From Desulfatiglandales bacterium (lineage in GTDB: Bacteria > Desulfobacterota > DSM-4660 > Desulfatiglandales > Desulfatiglandaceae), in NCBI GenBank assembly GCA_963662465.1, contig OY759599.1:640001-704000 (forward strand): DNA of 64,000 bases, given 5' to 3'. The notes under the pieces were generated by a model. The model saw nothing but the letters and a program-made list of their open reading frames with translations, made no database searches and was not told where the DNA came from. The translations under genes and the position numbers were made by a program. Below are positions 1,653 to 11,860 of this stretch, in pieces. The stretch's first letter is position 1; the number at the start of each line of letters is the position of its first letter.

Positions 1653-2814
1653 ATGACGGAACATTTCATATACCTTGATAACGCGGCCACTACTTTTCCA
1701 AAACCGCAAGGCGCTCTGACCCGTATGGTGGAGACCTATGAGCGCATAGGGGTTTCCCCCGGACGCGGGAGCTATGACCTCGCTGTTGAGGCGGCGGATC
1801 TGGTTTTCGCGACGAGGAGACGGCTCGCGCGGCTATTCGGGGCGCCGGACCCTGATCGCGTCATATTCACGGGGAACGCCACGGATGCTTTGAACCTTTG
1901 CATTCAGGGCTTGATAGGGCAGGGCGATCATGTGGTTTCCACCCGGATCGAGCACAACTCGGTTCTTCGACCCCTGTATCACCTTCGGCATCAAGGCTTG
2001 ATAACATACGATCTGGCGCCCTTCGACGGCAGGGGCTTTGTTGACCCAAACGATATTGCCAAGGCCATAAAACCCCATACGAAGCTGGTGATCGTGTGCC
2101 ATGCCTCCAACGTGCTGGGAACCATCCAGCCCATAGCCGAAATCGGTCTGCTTTGCGCGGAAAAGGGGGTGCCCCTGCTGGTGGATGCGGCGTAGAGCGC
2201 GGGGGTGATCCCCATTGACATGGACGCCTGGAAGATTGCAGCCGTTGCCTTTACCGGCCACAAGTCTTTACTGGGTCCAACCGGCATCGGGGGGCCTGGT
2301 CATCCACCCTGACCTGGACCTTCGAACCACCCGCTTCGGCGGTACCGGCATCGATTCTGAAAACCCGATTCATACTCAGCGCTACCCCCATCGCCTGGAG
2401 GCCGGAACCATCAACCTCATGGGGATTATCGGGCTTTCGGAAGGTCTCCGCTTTCTGGAGAAGAAGGGCATTGAATCGATCCACCGGGAGGAGATGAGAT
2501 TGCTCACCAGACTCCGCGACGGGCTGGCGGCATTGGAGGGGGTGGAATGTTACTGTGTTGAAGATTTGTCAGATCATGTGGGCCTCATGACCATGAATAT
2601 CAGGGGCATGGATCCGGGGGATGCGGGCGCCATCCTGGACGCCGATTTCGGGATCGCCGTACGTGTGGGGCTTCATTGCGCACCGCTGGCTCATGAGGGC
2701 ATCGGGACTTTTCCCCGGGGCGGCGTCCGTTTTAGCCTGGGGCCTTTTAACACGATGGATGATGTGGATCGGGCGGTGGAAGCCGTTACCCGGATGGGTC
2801 GTGCGCGGTTATGA
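1653..2814 (+). pseudogene. Cysteine desulfurase family (class V aminotransferase), disrupted
   Basis: IYLDNAATT, EHNSV, HASNVLG, TGHKSLLGPTG, RVGLHCAP, VRFSLG motifs. In-frame TAG at 2193-2195 replaces the CAG of DAAQ (CAG is kept in the second copy), and there is a +1 G in the G6 run at 2289-2294. Confidence 0.88.
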
Positions 2815-3177
2815 ATTAAGTTCAAATACAACCCTTAAAGACTGGTTAATTTCCTGTACGTTGTCTATTGACAATCTTCCCCGAATTTTAACCAGCCTAT
2901 GACGATGATCTATTGGACGTGTCTGCAAACAGTCTGCTACGGATTTTTTAGATAGGCCATTATCGGATGACGGATAAATTTTAACATTGGTTTTTATTCG
3001 CGCTTTTTTTGCACTCCATTCAGTAATTGGAACAACCTGGATAACAGGAACTCTTTCATTATAAATATCGTTAGTCACAACCACACATGGTCTAATTTTT
3101 CCAGTTTCTGAACCTTTTGTCGGATCAAGATTGACGTCAATAACCATACCTCTTTTCAGCACTATCATTTCGGCCAT
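2809..3177 (-). CDS. mazF: PemK/MazF-family toxin
   Basis: KRGMVIDVNLDPTKGSETGKIRPCVVVTND ... VVPIT ... ADCLQTRPID. Confidence 0.9.
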   Translation of the reverse strand: MAEMIVLKRGMVIDVNLDPTKGSETGKIRPCVVVTNDIYNERVPVIQVVPITEWSAKKARIKTNVKIYPSSDNGLSKKSVADCLQTRPIDHRHRLVKIRGRLSIDNVQEINQSLRVVFELNS

Positions 3178-3398
3178 CCGTTTAATGCAGTTTCGGTCAA
3201 TTCTTTTAAATCATCATCTTCAGAATAAATTTCAGAATATAGCTCAGCGGATTTTCTTAGACTTTCAAGTTCCATTTCTTTCTTGAAATGCTCTATAGCC
3301 TCACGAAGCATAGCGCTTTTATCCTTAAATCCATAAACTGTAAAATTATTCAAAAACTGGGCTTGCGTTTCTTCAACGCTGAATTTTGCCTGTAACAT
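3165..3398 (-). CDS. Putative antitoxin (RHH-like) paired with MazF toxin
   Basis: Small acidic protein overlapping the toxin start; KSAMLREAI helix motif. Confidence 0.7.
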   Translation of the reverse strand: MLQAKFSVEETQAQFLNNFTVYGFKDKSAMLREAIEHFKKEMELESLRKSAELYSEIYSEDDDLKELTETALNGWPK

Positions 3399-3444
3399 AC
3401 GGCCTCCTTTTAAGTGCTTATATTGGGCCTTTATTTATAGGCCT

Positions 3445-3473
3445 ACAATAGGGTCCAATGCACTGAAAGTCAA
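3445..3473 (-). promoter_or_regulatory. sigma70-type promoter of the TA cassette
   Basis: Minus strand TTGACT-17 nt-TATTGT, overlapped by imperfect GGCC/GGACC palindromes (possible operator). Confidence 0.6.
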
Positions 3474-3499
3474 TGAAACTGTTTGAGCAGACGGGAAAA

Positions 3500-3561
3500 G
3501 GCGAACGCTTCGGCTCACCGGACCCGCGCTGTTTGCGGGGGTCCGGGGGGAGCCGGTGGTT
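3500..3561 (-). repeat. attC site interrupted by a group II intron
   Basis: GGCGAAC-GCTTC-GGCTCACCGGACCC...GGGTCCGGGGGGAGCCGGTG-GTT; joining 3561 to 4390 restores GTTATGC (inverse core GCATAAC on minus). Confidence 0.8.
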
Positions 3562-4389
3562 GTGTGCCGGGCACGGCACGTGTTCTTAAGGGTGCGTGTA
3601 ATGTATCATGCTTCCGATATGTTACGCAAGTCCCAGACCCAGCCAGGTAGTGGCGAAGGGTGTGCGGGGTATCACAACCAGGTACCCGGTAACGGGCTTG
3701 GAGAGGCAGTGGCCTTGCTACGGCAGGGTACCGCGAACGCACGGGGCGACGAACAGAAATCGAGTCAAGCGGGTCTGGTGGGACGAGTCCGCAACACAGG
3801 ACAAAGTCCTCTAACTACTATAGGCCAGGCACGTAGTCGGCGCTCGTGTGCGGAAAGACACGTGTTTACCCCGGGAGGCTCGTTGCGTCTCGCAGGGAAC
3901 TGCAACTGAAACATACCGGAATATAAGTGAAAACCGGTAAAACAAAACCCTGGCGCCAGGGATATTTCGCGTCATGGCCCTGACGAGCCCGACCAACTGG
4001 TCGGGAAACACAAACAAATGGACTCGACAGATTGCAGAAACTACGAGTGAGTAAACTGCAAGGGGAGCCCACCGCGTAACGGGAGTCAGCAGAGGGCATA
4101 TTAAGCTGGAGAAACGAGTCCTGAATAAAGGGAGGCCTCACTCCGGTGAAGGCCCGAACGGTGCCACCTGCCGAATGGCAGGGGTAAATGGTTGTGGTTG
4201 TCAAAGAACGTGTACTTATTGGTCTAATGCAGCGGTAGCTGAAAGGTCGATAACGTCGCATTCTGGAAAACCCAGTAGGGCGGAACCTGTTTTATCCGTG
4301 CCTGCGCTGACCAGTCGAATCGCCGTATACGGACCCGTATGTACGGTGGTGTGGGAGGGGGGAGCTGTGAGGCTCCTCCCTATCCCTAT
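3562..4389 (+). ncRNA. ORF-less group II intron, class C attC-targeting type
   Basis: 5' GTGTG; domain I closing helix (CCGGGCACGGCACGTGTTC / GACACGTGTTTACCCCGG); AGTCAGCAGAGGGCATA...GAAGGCCCGAAC domain III; short domain V GAATCGCCGTATACGGACCCGTATGTACGGTGGTGTGGGAGG with CGC triad; domain VI ending CCCTAT; no RT ORF. Confidence 0.9.
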
Positions 4390-5221
4390 ATGCACACGTT
4401 TCACCGAACTTTTCTTTCAACCAGGCACACATTACCTGAAAGAAATCATCTTTTGCATATTTCTCTTTTGAAGGCGAATGCCCGCATTTTTCAAATTTAT
4501 GATATTCCAGTTGAGGTACATACCGTTTCAGTTCATCCCTTATCATTTCTCCCGGATGCGGATCATATGTGCCGTGCAGCATGAGTACCGGGGACCTGAT
4601 AACTGTAAAAGACTGAGGATATACCCTCTCTTCCTGGCAGCGGATCATGTCGTTCCATGTCTCTGTGTGCGCTTTCATATCAAACAATTCCGTTCCCGAA
4701 TTCCCGATGATGTCAGTCACACAATCGTAATTGTCTGTCATTTCATGCCACTTCATGATCTGTTCCTGAAAAGACAGATGCAGATCAGAACTGTGCTCCG
4801 GGTGCTTTTTTATGTAATCGAAAATTCTGCGCTTCCGTGTTCTTATCGCCTCCTCACGGGAACTTCTGTCAAAAGTTCCGCAACCGATAAGTACAAGAGG
4901 CCCGACTGTCTCAGGATACTCCGCGGCATAAGCCAATGCGAGCATTGCCCCCCATGAGTCACCGACAAGCGCGGGAACCTGATCGCCGCATCGGGCAGAT
5001 ATTAACTGATGGAGATCGGAAATATGAACAGCAACAGATAACGGCATGTCACCGCTGACACGCTGCCAGGGTTCAAATACTCTGAAATTGTCAGCCAGAC
5101 CTTCGGCTACCGGTGCGGCACTTCCCGATGCACCGGGGCCACCGTGCAGGACTATTACAGGAGATCCTTTTTCTCCGTAAATGCCGATACGTTTATTTTC
5201 CTTCCATCCCAACTTATCCAT
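4292..5221 (-). CDS. Alpha/beta hydrolase (proline iminopeptidase-like) gene cassette; natural stop split by the intron, so the ORF reads about 34 codons into the intron antisense
   Basis: LHGGPG and GDSWG nucleophile motifs; without the intron the gene ends ...GETCA-TAA inside the inverse core GCATAAC. Confidence 0.85.
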   Translation of the reverse strand: MDKLGWKENKRIGIYGEKGSPVIVLHGGPGASGSAAPVAEGLADNFRVFEPWQRVSGDMPLSVAVHISDLHQLISARCGDQVPALVGDSWGAMLALAYAAEYPETVGPLVLIGCGTFDRSSREEAIRTRKRRIFDYIKKHPEHSSDLHLSFQEQIMKWHEMTDNYDCVTDIIGNSGTELFDMKAHTETWNDMIRCQEERVYPQSFTVIRSPVLMLHGTYDPHPGEMIRDELKRYVPQLEYHKFEKCGHSPSKEKYAKDDFFQVMCAWLKEKFGETCAYRDREEPHSSPLPHHRTYGSVYGDSTGQRRHG

Positions 5222-6330: not shown

Positions 6331-6384
6331 AATCGCGGTGTCCGGTCAAGCACCGCGATTCCCGGCGGCGAAGCCGCCGGGAAC
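6331..6384. repeat. 54-bp double-hairpin element, copy 1
   Basis: AATCGCGGTG-TCCGGTCAAG-CACCGCGATT plus CCCGGCGGC-GAA-GCCGCCGGG-AAC; 52/54 identical to 11807-11860. Confidence 0.9.
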
Positions 6385-9080: not shown

Positions 9081-9158
9081 AAGGTCACCAGCGTTTCCTC
9101 CGGCCCCCGCCAAGGACCTCCGAAGTATCAGGCGGTCTGGTGCAGCGTTTGGTTCGCT
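9081..9158 (-). repeat. Degenerate attC site after hicB
   Basis: GGTCTGGTGCAGCGTTTGGTTCGC end and a GGTCACCAGCG partner arm; other core missing. Confidence 0.5.
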
Positions 9159-9815: not shown

Positions 9816-9981
9816 CTAATGCAGCAGTAGCTGAAAGGTCGATAACGTCGCATTCTGGGAAACCCGGTAGGGCGGAACCTGTTTTATCCGTGCCTGCTCT
9901 GACTAGCCGAATCGCCGTATACGGACCCGTATGTACGGTGGTGTGGGAGGGGGGAGCTGTGAGGCTCCTCCCTATCCCTAT
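9816..9981 (+). ncRNA. 5'-truncated copy (domains IV-VI) of the same ORF-less group II intron
   Basis: 166 nt colinear with 4224-4389 with a few substitutions; 3' junction CCCTAT|ATGT again at an inverse-core-like position. Confidence 0.9.
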
Positions 9982-11806: not shown

Positions 11807-11860
11807 AATCGCGGTGTCCGGTCAAGCTCCGCGATTTCCGGCGGCGAAGCCGCCGGGAAC
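11807..11860. repeat. 54-bp double-hairpin element, copy 2
   Basis: 52/54 identical to 6331-6384; followed by an attC-like half arm AAC-GGCTG-GGGTAACCAG. Confidence 0.9.

What the first reader, a model, noticed from the sequence alone, without database searches (positions are those of the whole stretch)
3562..4389. Complete ORF-less group IIC intron inserted in an attC inverse core
Seen: 828 nt with a GTGTG start, class-C-like domain I/III landmarks, short CGC-triad domain V and domain VI ending in AT. Domain IV is only about 155 nt and encodes no reverse transcriptase. Removing the intron restores GGTT|ATGC, which is the attC inverse core and also the TAA stop of the hydrolase cassette. Established: group IIC-attC introns insert next to the attC hairpin, antisense to cassette genes, and normally encode an RT. 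Inference: this is a non-autonomous attC-homing retroelement mobilised in trans, and it blocks excision of its cassette. ORF-less bacterial introns are known, but an attC-targeting one with a second inserted copy is unusual.
Basis: partly seen in the sequence, partly recalled or inferred. Interest (0 to 1): 0.8.

Follow-up and report, generated by a model that had tools for sequence, protein, structure and literature searches.

The report
Gene-less mobile intron in integron site
An 828-base group IIC intron that has lost its own reverse-transcriptase gene sits inside an integron recombination site; it belongs to a multi-copy, widespread family that has kept the hairpin where that enzyme normally docks, so it most likely spreads by borrowing the enzyme from a full-length relative.

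Summary
Window 3562-4389 (+) is a complete 828-nt group II intron by Rfam, with no RT-like ORF. It sits between GTT and ATGC of an attC R'' box, antisense to the cassettes, and splits the TAA stop of the hydrolase gene.

It is not a one-off deletion. The genome holds 5 full ORF-less copies (94-100% identical) at different attC sites, 5 damaged derivatives and 1 ORF-bearing copy. The window's "second copy" is only a 166-nt 3' fragment.

The same ORF-less form occurs in a sister species, in other families of the order, and in 21 of 23 metagenome loci found with an ORF-less-specific motif.

The residual domain IV is the old ribosome-site/start-codon hairpin (DIVa). It is about as conserved as domain V and shows compensatory changes.

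The partner protein is class C. It is intact in the sister species but frameshifted here, so the copies in this genome are probably stranded.

Ribozyme and protein trees disagree, which points to exchange of domain IV between intron lineages.

"Blocks cassette excision" is untested and doubtful.

Earlier notes of this scan report ORF-less IIC-attC introns on other DNA. ORF-less IIC introns (HYER) and trans-mobilised ORF-less families (Thermosynechococcus) are in print. I rate this a new variant of a known kind.

The parts
3504..3561 (+). attC bottom-strand hairpin forming the 5' exon. AAC (complement of R') is at 3504-3506. GTT (complement of the AAC of R''), read as IBS1, is at 3559-3561.
   Evidence: DNA fold of -18.7 to -22 kcal/mol, bounded by AAC...GTT. 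The same architecture flanks the other copies.
3562..4389 (+). Complete ORF-less group IIC intron, 828 nt.
   Evidence: Rfam hits; ends fixed by 5 full copies; no Pfam match in any internal ORF.
3683..3865 (+). Domain I core (RF02001).
   Evidence: 81.7 bits. RF02001 also hits an attC-borne intron of a class 1 integron at 117 bits. Its 9 matches in this genome are all copies of this family.
3791..3798 (+). Terminal loop GCAACACA of the d3 hairpin. AAC at 3793-3795 is the proposed EBS1.
   Evidence: Hairpin in the Rfam structure line. The loop begins with the same GCAACACA in the 14 introns where the script found the hairpin (4 of 18 gave no match), and 12 of those 14 have 5' exons ending in GTT. 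There is complementarity but no covariation.
4183..4316 (+). Domain IV without an ORF.
   Evidence: Consensus fold of 21 ORF-less sequences.
4194..4273 (+). DIVa-type long hairpin, a remnant of the RT gene's ribosome-binding site, start codon and first codons. Proposed docking site for the RT/maturase.
   Evidence: 82-92% identical between subtypes, like domain V. Helix 7: 13 pairs, 100% paired, 7 vary on one side and 1 on both. Same architecture with compensatory changes in an ORF-bearing relative, where the start codon lies in the stem.
4191..4300 (+). 110 nt present only in the ORF-less form. The ORF-bearing copy has 1406 nt here.
   Evidence: BLAST of ORF-less against ORF-bearing copy.
4319..4350 (+). 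Domain V, 32 nt, CGC triad.
   Evidence: RF00029 alignment; pairs.
4353..4389 (+). Domain VI with a bulged A, and the 3' end ...CCCTAT.
4390..5221 (-). Alpha/beta-hydrolase cassette gene. Its TAA stop is split T|AA by the intron, and the ORF now runs to 4292.
   Evidence: Pfam PF00561, E 4.5e-14; codon computed.
2809..3398 (-). Next cassette downstream in the cassette direction: a small ORF plus a PemK/MazF-type toxin.
   Evidence: PF02452, E 5e-26; ORF list.
9816..9981 (+). 5'-truncated fragment of the ORF-less intron (query 663-828).
   Evidence: 96% identity. It starts inside the ORF-less-specific segment, so it derives from the ORF-less form; RF00029 hit at 9910-9981.
9083..9154 (+). Unoccupied attC of the same family that hosts six other copies (four full, the IS-interrupted one and one with an internal deletion). 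It ends ...TTTGGTT and is followed by C.

Best explanation
This is a non-autonomous group IIC retroelement. An ancestral class C intron lost nearly all of its RT/maturase gene but kept the ribozyme and the DIVa hairpin, the old ribosome-site/start-codon region where the protein docks.

Proposed cycle. The intron RNA is transcribed antisense to the cassettes. It is folded and excised with the help of a class C RT/maturase made by a full-length relative. It then reverse-splices into single-stranded attC bottom strands. The attC hairpin stands in for the stem-loop that IIC introns need. EBS1 (AAC in loop 3791-3798) pairs with the GTT of the R'' box, and the first 3'-exon base is A or G. The borrowed RT copies the intron into DNA.

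Shown: the anatomy, the site, the multiplication of the ORF-less form, its wide spread, the conservation and covariation of DIVa, and the class of the partner protein.

Inferred: transcription, protein binding to DIVa, reverse splicing and priming.

In this genome the only cognate RT gene is frameshifted, so the copy in the window is most likely a stranded but structurally intact member.
For: Identity and class.
- Rfam RF02001 and RF00029 both hit the span.
- RF02001 also hits an intron in the aadA1 attC of a class 1 integron.
- The partner protein (P0001, 94% identical to this genome's broken gene) matches GsI-IIC RT at 445 bits and the 7uim RT/maturase at 356 bits (IIC label recalled), against LtrA at 140 and 6me0 at 134.

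Site.
- All 10 copies in this genome that keep a 5' end follow a hairpin ending (T/G)GTT.
- The 3' exon starts with A in 7 of the 10 copies in this genome that keep a 3' end and with G in 2 (the tenth lacks the intron's 3' end), and the 3' flanks are unrelated.
- 39 sites in the genome carry the attC-family motif; 6 are occupied.
- Integron integrase genes are present in the genome, 5 over the TIGR02249 cut-off.

Proliferation as the ORF-less form.
- 5 full copies, 1 IS-interrupted, 2 with internal deletions, 1 3'-truncated and 1 5'-truncated, against 1 ORF-bearing copy.
- The 5'-truncated window fragment starts inside the ORF-less segment.

Spread.
- The sister species G010 has 2 full copies plus fragments and an ORF-bearing copy with an intact 469-aa protein at another site.
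- ORF-less relatives occur in G049, G129, G202, G135 and G166.
- 21 of 23 metagenome loci found with the motif are ORF-less introns of three subtypes.

DIVa.
- It is as conserved as domain V.
- Its variation is not biased to third codon positions (read from alignment A3).
- The consensus fold is 97.9% paired, against 36-47% when partners are slid.
- It is homologous in sequence and fold to the start region of an ORF-bearing relative.

A hint of excision. In one marine metatranscriptome, a contig joins the intron's 3' end to its 5' end.
Against: - No intact cognate RT exists in this genome. The next-best RT is 41% identical, and RF02001-type ribozymes occur only in this family.
- The resident ORF-bearing copies carry a DIVa region that folds differently from the ORF-less DIVa, so recognition by that protein is not assured.
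- In 3 of 5 other genomes with ORF-less copies, no close protein was found with this query: G049 (95% complete), G129 (87%), and G202 (85%, best 40% identity).
- There is no evidence that this copy is transcribed or spliced. No promoter-like site was found inside it, and none on its strand upstream.
- The head-to-tail RNA junction has only 27-29 letters on its short side, under the tool's 31-letter rule. It comes from one run and cannot be assigned to the ORF-less rather than the ORF-bearing form.
- The EBS1 loop and the GTT target never vary, so their pairing rests on complementarity alone.
Confidence: 0.75

Rival explanations
1. HYER-like ribozyme. The ORF-less intron is kept because the RNA alone does something useful, such as hydrolytic cleavage of DNA or RNA, and it does not depend on an RT.
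For: ORF-less IIC introns with protein-free DNA/RNA hydrolysis are in print (HYER; passages of PMC11754743 and PMC12990946). Some genomes hold ORF-less copies with no close RT found. The ribozyme domains look intact.
Against: New copies at many attC sites need reverse transcription. The best-conserved non-catalytic part is the old RT start-region hairpin, which a protein-free nuclease would not need. 5'-truncated and internally deleted copies are typical of retroelement decay. No activity was tested, and no HYER sequences were on hand for comparison.
Confidence: 0.1
2. The copies multiplied at the DNA level, by cassette duplication, integrase-mediated shuffling of cassettes that already held the intron, or homologous recombination. 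Retrohoming was not involved.
For: attC sites of this genome form near-identical families, so recombination between them is plausible. One attC type is occupied in both G000 and G010 with different 3' exons.
Against: The 3' flanks of all copies differ, and the intron sequences differ by up to 6-7%, without shared flanking genes. Every junction is exact at GTT|, as EBS/IBS-guided insertion predicts. Identical ribozyme sequence occurs at unrelated sites in two species.
Confidence: 0.1
3. The ORF-less copies are mobilised by non-cognate RTs, for example those of the many group IIB-type introns in this genome, rather than by a class C protein.
For: There are 47 RVT_1 matches in the genome. Several lie 1-5 kb from ORF-less copies. 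The cognate gene is broken here.
Against: Those proteins are at most 41% identical to the cognate one. Maturases are normally specific for their own ribozyme (established knowledge; PMC2882425 passages show that 'driver' proteins act within one related family). The conserved DIVa is of class C type. Several of those neighbouring RT genes are themselves split by a 325-nt insert.
Confidence: 0.08
4. A one-off recent deletion of the RT ORF in a single copy, with no family behind it.
For: None found.
Against: 10 ORF-less or ORF-less-derived copies in this genome, and the same domain IV in other genomes and in 21 metagenome loci at 72-89% identity.
Confidence: 0.01

Closest known systems
Group IIC-attC introns (S.ma.I2 type; passages of PMC3001079 and PMC7923331). 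As a fetched example, the intron in the aadA1 attC of the class 1 integron on plasmid NZ_CP015139.1.
   Same: Class C ribozyme: RF02001 hits both. Insertion is next to the attC hairpin at the conserved GTT/AAC triplet. Here, as described for the lineage, it is on the bottom strand at R'' and antisense to the cassettes.
   Different: No RT gene. The insertion point is after GTT (GTT|A/G), whereas the published consensus is TTGT/T and the plasmid example is GT|T, a shift of one base. The partner protein is only 48% identical to the plasmid intron's protein. Membership of the monophyletic IIC-attC protein clade was not tested. No outward promoter-like site was found by a consensus scan.
ORF-less TeI3 introns of Thermosynechococcus elongatus, mobilised by 'driver' RTs of related TeI4 introns (PMC2882425, passages read).
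   Same: There was a single ancestral deletion of the ORF that left DIVa in place. The ORF-less form then proliferated to outnumber the ORF-bearing one. It depends on a related intron's protein.
   Different: That family is not class C and homes to sequence-defined sites within one genome. This one is class C and targets attC hairpins. It is spread over several families of an order and over metagenomes, and its partner in this genome is dead. Mobility is shown by experiment there and only inferred here.
HYER, hydrolytic endonucleolytic ribozymes: ORF-less group IIC introns (Liu et al. 2024 Science, not held; seen only through passages of PMC11754743 and PMC12990946).
   Same: ORF-less class IIC ribozymes of about 0.6-0.8 kb with a short target-recognition sequence.
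   Different: HYERs are defined by measured protein-free cleavage, which could not be tested here. No sequence comparison was possible. The retained DIVa hairpin and the attC-specific multi-copy insertion point to retroelement behaviour. I could not check whether HYERs sit in attC sites.

Membership tests
Group II intron | Six-domain ribozyme with a conserved domain V and a domain VI with a bulged A; GUGYG 5' end and AY 3' end. | tested here: met
   RF02001 81.7 bits and RF00029 45 bits. GTGTG start and ...TAT end. 77 consensus pairs in DIV-DVI, 97.9% paired.
Class C (IIC) | Class C-type domain I and a short domain V with a CGC triad. | tested here: met
   RF02001 is shared with an integron attC intron. 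Domain V is 32 nt, with CGC where the Rfam consensus has AGC. That CGC marks class C is recalled knowledge.
Class C (IIC) | Intron-encoded protein of the class C lineage, without an endonuclease domain. | tested here: met
   The partner protein's best solved relatives are GsI-IIC RT (445 bits) and 7uim (356 bits), against LtrA (140) and 6me0 (134). Pfam shows RVT_1 plus GIIM only. The window copy itself encodes no protein.
Class C (IIC) | Insertion just after a stem-loop, with a 3-4-nt IBS1 and no IBS2. | tested here: met
   All copies follow a hairpin and (T/G)GTT. An EBS2 was not looked for.
Group IIC-attC lineage | Insertion in the bottom strand of attC at R'', antisense to cassette genes. 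| tested here: met
   Definition taken from passages of PMC3001079 and PMC7923331.
Group IIC-attC lineage | Target consensus TTGT/T (IBS1/IBS3). | tested here: not met
   Here the cut is after the third base of GTT, and IBS3 is A or G. The plasmid example shows GT|T.
Group IIC-attC lineage | Protein falls in the monophyletic IIC-attC subclade. | not tested
   Only one pairwise value: 48% identity to the plasmid intron's protein. No named reference set was on hand.
Group IIC-attC lineage | Encodes an RT/maturase. | tested here: not met
   No Pfam match in any internal ORF. Domain IV is 134 nt.
HYER | ORF-less group IIC intron. | tested here: met
   As in the rows above.
HYER | Protein-free hydrolytic cleavage of RNA/DNA guided by a 6-nt target recognition site. 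| not testable with these tools
   This is an activity assay. Definition from a passage of PMC12990946.
Non-autonomous (trans-mobilised) ORF-less intron family, TeI3-like | One shared ORF deletion, many copies at separate sites, and a related ORF-bearing intron in the same genome. | tested here: met
   The shared domain IV across subtypes is shown.
Non-autonomous (trans-mobilised) ORF-less intron family, TeI3-like | Mobility supported in trans by the related protein. | not testable with these tools
   Needs a mobility assay. The protein is intact in G010 and broken in this genome.

The most novel reading that the evidence does not exclude
The ORF-less attC-homing intron is not a short-lived by-product. 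It is an old, SINE-like lineage that parasitises class C RTs across several bacterial families and is held together by selection on the DIVa docking hairpin. In the genus of this genome, one such ORF-less ribozyme regained autonomy by capturing, through recombination in domain IV, the RT gene of a different intron lineage. Ribozyme and protein would then be exchangeable modules, not strictly co-evolving partners.
Probability: 0.35. Interest if true: 0.7.

Novelty: new variant of a known kind. Interest (0 to 1): 0.55.

Why it matters
Reviews describe bacterial ORF-less group II introns as rare and short-lived (PMC4424553, passages). This case differs in three ways.

- It is an ORF-less class C lineage that targets integron attC sites. 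It outnumbers its ORF-bearing partner about ten to one in this genome and recurs in other genomes of the order and in metagenomes.
- Its only conserved non-catalytic part is the old start-codon hairpin. That gives a concrete, testable handle on how a class C maturase recognises an RNA it does not encode.
- The mismatch between ribozyme and protein trees suggests that domain IV, with or without its gene, is swapped between intron lineages.

For integron biology, such elements lengthen cassettes, alter gene ends (here a 32-codon read-through of a hydrolase), and occupy 6 of 39 sites of one attC family.

Compact, attC-hairpin-guided ribozymes are also of interest next to the HYER tools.

Tried and rejected
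- **Peptide in domain IV.** The frame from the old start is open in subtypes A, B and C, but the variation is not concentrated at third codon positions (read from A3). I rejected a coding reading in favour of an RNA-level constraint.
- **Outward promoter, as in S.ma.I2.** The consensus scan of 3380-4480 found no site inside the intron: 1 site in all, in the exon, against 0.6 expected.
- **Strict attC scan of the whole window** (AAC...GTT plus a strong single hairpin). It found only 2 sites, and two earlier versions found 0 and 1. Other attC-like sites were seen by eye only, so I make no count of cassettes.
- **Pattern for the attC family in the window**: 0 matches, because the motif was too narrow.
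- **Chance motif matches.** The 22-nt motif also matched an intergenic site in a Chitinophaga genome with no intron. It matched two unrelated metagenome contigs, L062 and L063. I treat all three as chance.
- **Origin of the last part of ORF-less domain IV.** No counterpart was seen at the 3' ends of ORF-bearing relatives.
- **Domain V/VI as a marker of recombination.** Two DVI types exist, but the region is too short to place.
- **Read laying**. All four runs are contigs. Parts without cover, depths and the small-share runs say nothing about absence, habitat or expression. No spliced-exon junction for this locus could be looked for in relatives' RNA.
- **Earlier notes by sequence**: nothing found.
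- **Papers not held.** Leon and Roy 2009 (PMC2747902) is not held. The TTGT/T consensus is therefore taken second-hand from PMC7923331 and from one plasmid example. The HYER paper itself is also not held.
- **Searches for an ORF-less IIC-attC intron in print**. No paper in the listings or in the passages I read describes one. The library lacks most subscription journals.

Full report
**What is there.** Window 3562-4389 (+) is a complete group II intron.
- Rfam finds a domain I core (RF02001, 3683-3865, 81.7 bits) and domain V/VI (RF00029, 4318-4389, 45 bits) at gathering level.
- The ends are fixed by comparison. The genome (one 8.16-Mb contig; the window is 640001-704000) holds four more full-length copies, 94-95% identical. 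All run from GTGTG to ...CCTAT or ...CCCAT, and their 3' flanks are unrelated.
- None of the six internal ORFs (62-131 aa) matches a Pfam family.
- Helix-bounded domain IV is 134 nt, at 4183-4316.
- Domain V is 32 nt and reads CGC where the Rfam consensus has AGC.
- Domain VI has a bulged A upstream of the 3' end.

**Where it sits.**
- The 5' exon is an imperfect hairpin bounded by AAC and GTT (3504-3561; -22 kcal/mol as DNA).
- On the cassette strand the empty site reads GCAT|AAC, an R''-type inverse core.
- The codon across the site computes to TAA, the stop of the alpha/beta-hydrolase gene (PF00561). With the intron in place, that ORF reads 32 codons into the intron's antisense.
- The cassettes run on the minus strand. 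The next one is a PemK/MazF pair. So the intron is antisense and in the attC bottom strand, as described for group IIC-attC introns (passages of PMC3001079 and PMC7923331).
- No integron integrase gene lies in the window. Five matches over the TIGR02249 cut-off lie elsewhere in the genome, so this array lacks its own integrase.
- A motif for the attC family that hosts six copies occurs 39 times in the genome. Six sites are occupied. The empty ones are followed by C (16), G (9), A (7) or T (1), whereas occupied sites have A or G. One empty site is in the window, at 9083-9154.

**Target recognition.**
- All 10 copies in this genome that keep a 5' end, and the relatives, follow (T/G)GTT.
- The terminal loop of the d3 hairpin begins GCAACACA (3791-3798) in all 14 introns in which the script found the hairpin (4 of 18 gave no match). 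Twelve of those 14 have 5' exons ending in GTT.
- AAC against GTT is therefore the likely EBS1-IBS1 pair. Because neither side varies, this rests on complementarity alone.
- The cut is one base further 3' than the published TTGT/T consensus. It is also one base further than in an intron I fetched from the aadA1 attC of a class 1 integron, which is cut GT|T. That plasmid intron is also hit by RF02001, at 117 bits.

**A family, not a one-off deletion.** Besides the five full copies, the genome holds:
- one full ORF-less copy interrupted by a 2-kb IS element with a 9-bp target duplication;
- two copies with internal deletions;
- one 3'-truncated copy;
- the window's 166-nt 5'-truncated fragment at 9816-9981, which starts inside the ORF-less-specific segment;
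- one 2123-nt ORF-bearing copy.

The ORF-bearing copy equals the ORF-less form over positions 1-629 and 740-828, and has 1406 nt in place of 110 nt. Its protein is broken by a 17-nt insertion and a 1-nt deletion, and also has two in-frame 3-nt deletions. No other close RT exists in the genome: the next best is 41% identical. The nine RF02001 matches in the genome are all copies of this family.

**The partner protein.**
- The intact form (P0001, 469 aa, 94% identical) belongs to a large environmental family of 455-aa RT/maturases.
- It is class C by its solved relatives: GsI-IIC RT 445 bits and 7uim 356 bits, against LtrA 140 and 6me0 134. That 7uim is a IIC intron protein is recalled.
- In the sister species G010, the ORF-bearing copy (99.2% identical in DNA) has an intact protein and sits at another site.

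**Spread.**
- G010 has two full ORF-less copies plus fragments.
- In a search of all 209 genomes held for the order, 16 have a match at E<=1e-20.
- ORF-less forms are seen in G049 (720 nt), G129, G202, G135 and G166 (a 379-nt mini form).
- A metagenome scan with a 21-nt motif from the ORF-less segment gave 23 loci. Of these, 21 are ORF-less introns of three subtypes (A about 830 nt, B about 720 nt, C cut by contig ends), 72-89% identical to the window copy. The other two are chance matches.
- This scan could only find the ORF-less form, so it says nothing about how common ORF-bearing forms are.
- With P0001 as query, a close protein was found in G166 and G135 but not in G049, G129 or G202, which are 95%, 87% and 85% complete.

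**What the residual domain IV is.**
- Across subtypes the long hairpin at 4194-4273 is 82-92% identical. Domain V is 85-97%, domains I-III about 73% (A against B), and the second domain IV hairpin 44-67%.
- Its variation is not biased to third codon positions.
- The consensus fold of 21 sequences has 77 pairs with 97.9% of cells paired, against 36-47% when partners are slid. In the long stem, 7 of 13 pairs vary on one side and 1 on both, with no unpaired cell.
- The sequence aligns with the ribosome-binding site, start codon and first codons of the RT gene of an ORF-bearing relative (G071). An ORF-less form in G135 is intermediate.
- All of these fold into the same architecture with compensatory changes: an apical 4-bp stem with a tetraloop, an asymmetric internal loop, and a long stem.
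- This is the position and nature of DIVa, the primary docking site of group II maturases. That role is established for IIA introns and is cited as such in PMC2882425. For this class it is an inference.

**Incongruent histories.**
- In a tree of domains I-III, the ORF-less forms A and B, the ORF-bearing copies of G000 and G010, and G071 form one clade (100/100). G138, G135, G072 and G119 form another (97/97).
- The G000 ORF-bearing ribozyme is 99% identical to ORF-less copy c3, 61% to G138 and 69% to G071.
- In the protein tree, G010 groups with G138, G135, G072 and G119 (100/99) to the exclusion of G071. Identities are 82% and 63% respectively.
- AU tests reject the protein-like topology on the ribozyme data (p 0.011) and a G010+G071 pair on the protein data (p 0.0046). 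Both groups were named after the trees were seen, and G071 is a long branch.
- This points to exchange of domain IV, with its gene, between lineages. A 42-nt stretch at the 5' base of domain IV is identical between the two ribozyme clades and would suit a crossover.
- The direction is open. The ORF-bearing copies nest inside a wider ORF-less clade, which favours capture of an ORF by an ORF-less intron, but ORF-bearing forms were sampled far less.
- The captured DIVa region folds differently from the ORF-less one. This is a caveat for the helper role of that protein.

**RNA.** Only contigs of four public runs could be laid.
- In one marine metatranscriptome (X15) there are contigs of a relative's ORF-less domain IV and of an ORF-bearing 3' end.
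- One contig in that run joins the last bases of the intron to its first bases, a head-to-tail junction as expected of an excised circle. The short side has only 27-29 letters, under the tool's 31-letter rule. It is one run, and it cannot be assigned to either form, so it is only a hint.
- Another RNA run holds a shortened variant.

**Verdict.**
- In this genome the helper is dead.
- The 'second copy' is a fragment.
- 'Blocks excision' is untested. It is doubtful because the hairpin, its AAC/GTT closure and the R' crossover side are untouched, so the intron may simply be carried inside a longer cassette (inference).

**Closest systems in print.**
- IIC-attC introns: same site logic, but they encode an RT and use a different cut register.
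- The Thermosynechococcus TeI3/TeI4 system: same non-autonomous logic in a different class (PMC2882425, passages).
- HYERs, the ORF-less IIC ribozymes, seen only second-hand.
- PMC4424553 calls bacterial ORF-less introns rare.

**Earlier notes.** Earlier notes of this scan report ORF-less IIC-attC introns in other genomes, and IIC and IIB introns on attC sites of this genome. I did not test those notes.

Noticed in passing
Own genome outside the window: G000 3215058-3216527, 4988560-4990035, 3349579-3351445, 3345895-3347206, 3337759-3339071: Several RT genes of other group II introns, of three different protein types, are all split right after the TPQGG motif by the same insert of about 320 nt.
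   Followed up: partly
Own genome, G000 3342733-3344737 (inside an ORF-less copy): A 2-kb IS element sits in domain III of one ORF-less copy. It has terminal inverted repeats, a 9-bp target duplication and a 605-aa ORF.
   Followed up: partly
L137 2150-4090 (plasmid NZ_CP015139.1): The class C intron in the aadA1 attC of this class 1 integron lies in the same direction as the cassettes and is cut at GT|T of the R' core on the top strand. This differs from the usual 'antisense, bottom strand' description.
   Followed up: partly
Window 6331-6384 and 11807-11860: A 54-nt repeat made of two adjacent GC-rich hairpins, 96% identical, in two intergenic places. It is not attC-like.
   Followed up: no
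Own genome copies c4 (2370575-2371410) and c2 (3352351-3353176): Copy c4 carries short duplications inside domain V, and c2 lacks 2 nt between domains V and VI. Both are probably inactivating.
   Followed up: no
G000 6765354-6765423 and L057 (G010 C4): The same attC hairpin type is occupied in both species, by intron variants 92% identical and next to different 3' exons. This may mean a multi-copy attC family or recombination through intron copies.
   Followed up: no
Run X16 laid on window 3877-4308: An aquatic metatranscriptome contig of a relative lacks 430 nt (domains III-IV) at high contig depth. It is a mini form like those in G000 (6382247-6382658) and G166.
   Followed up: no
L059 1501-1522 (Chitinophaga sp. 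CF118): An exact 22-nt match to the domain IV motif in an intergenic spot with no intron. It is probably chance: my own rough estimate is about 0.1 expected in the collection.
   Followed up: partly
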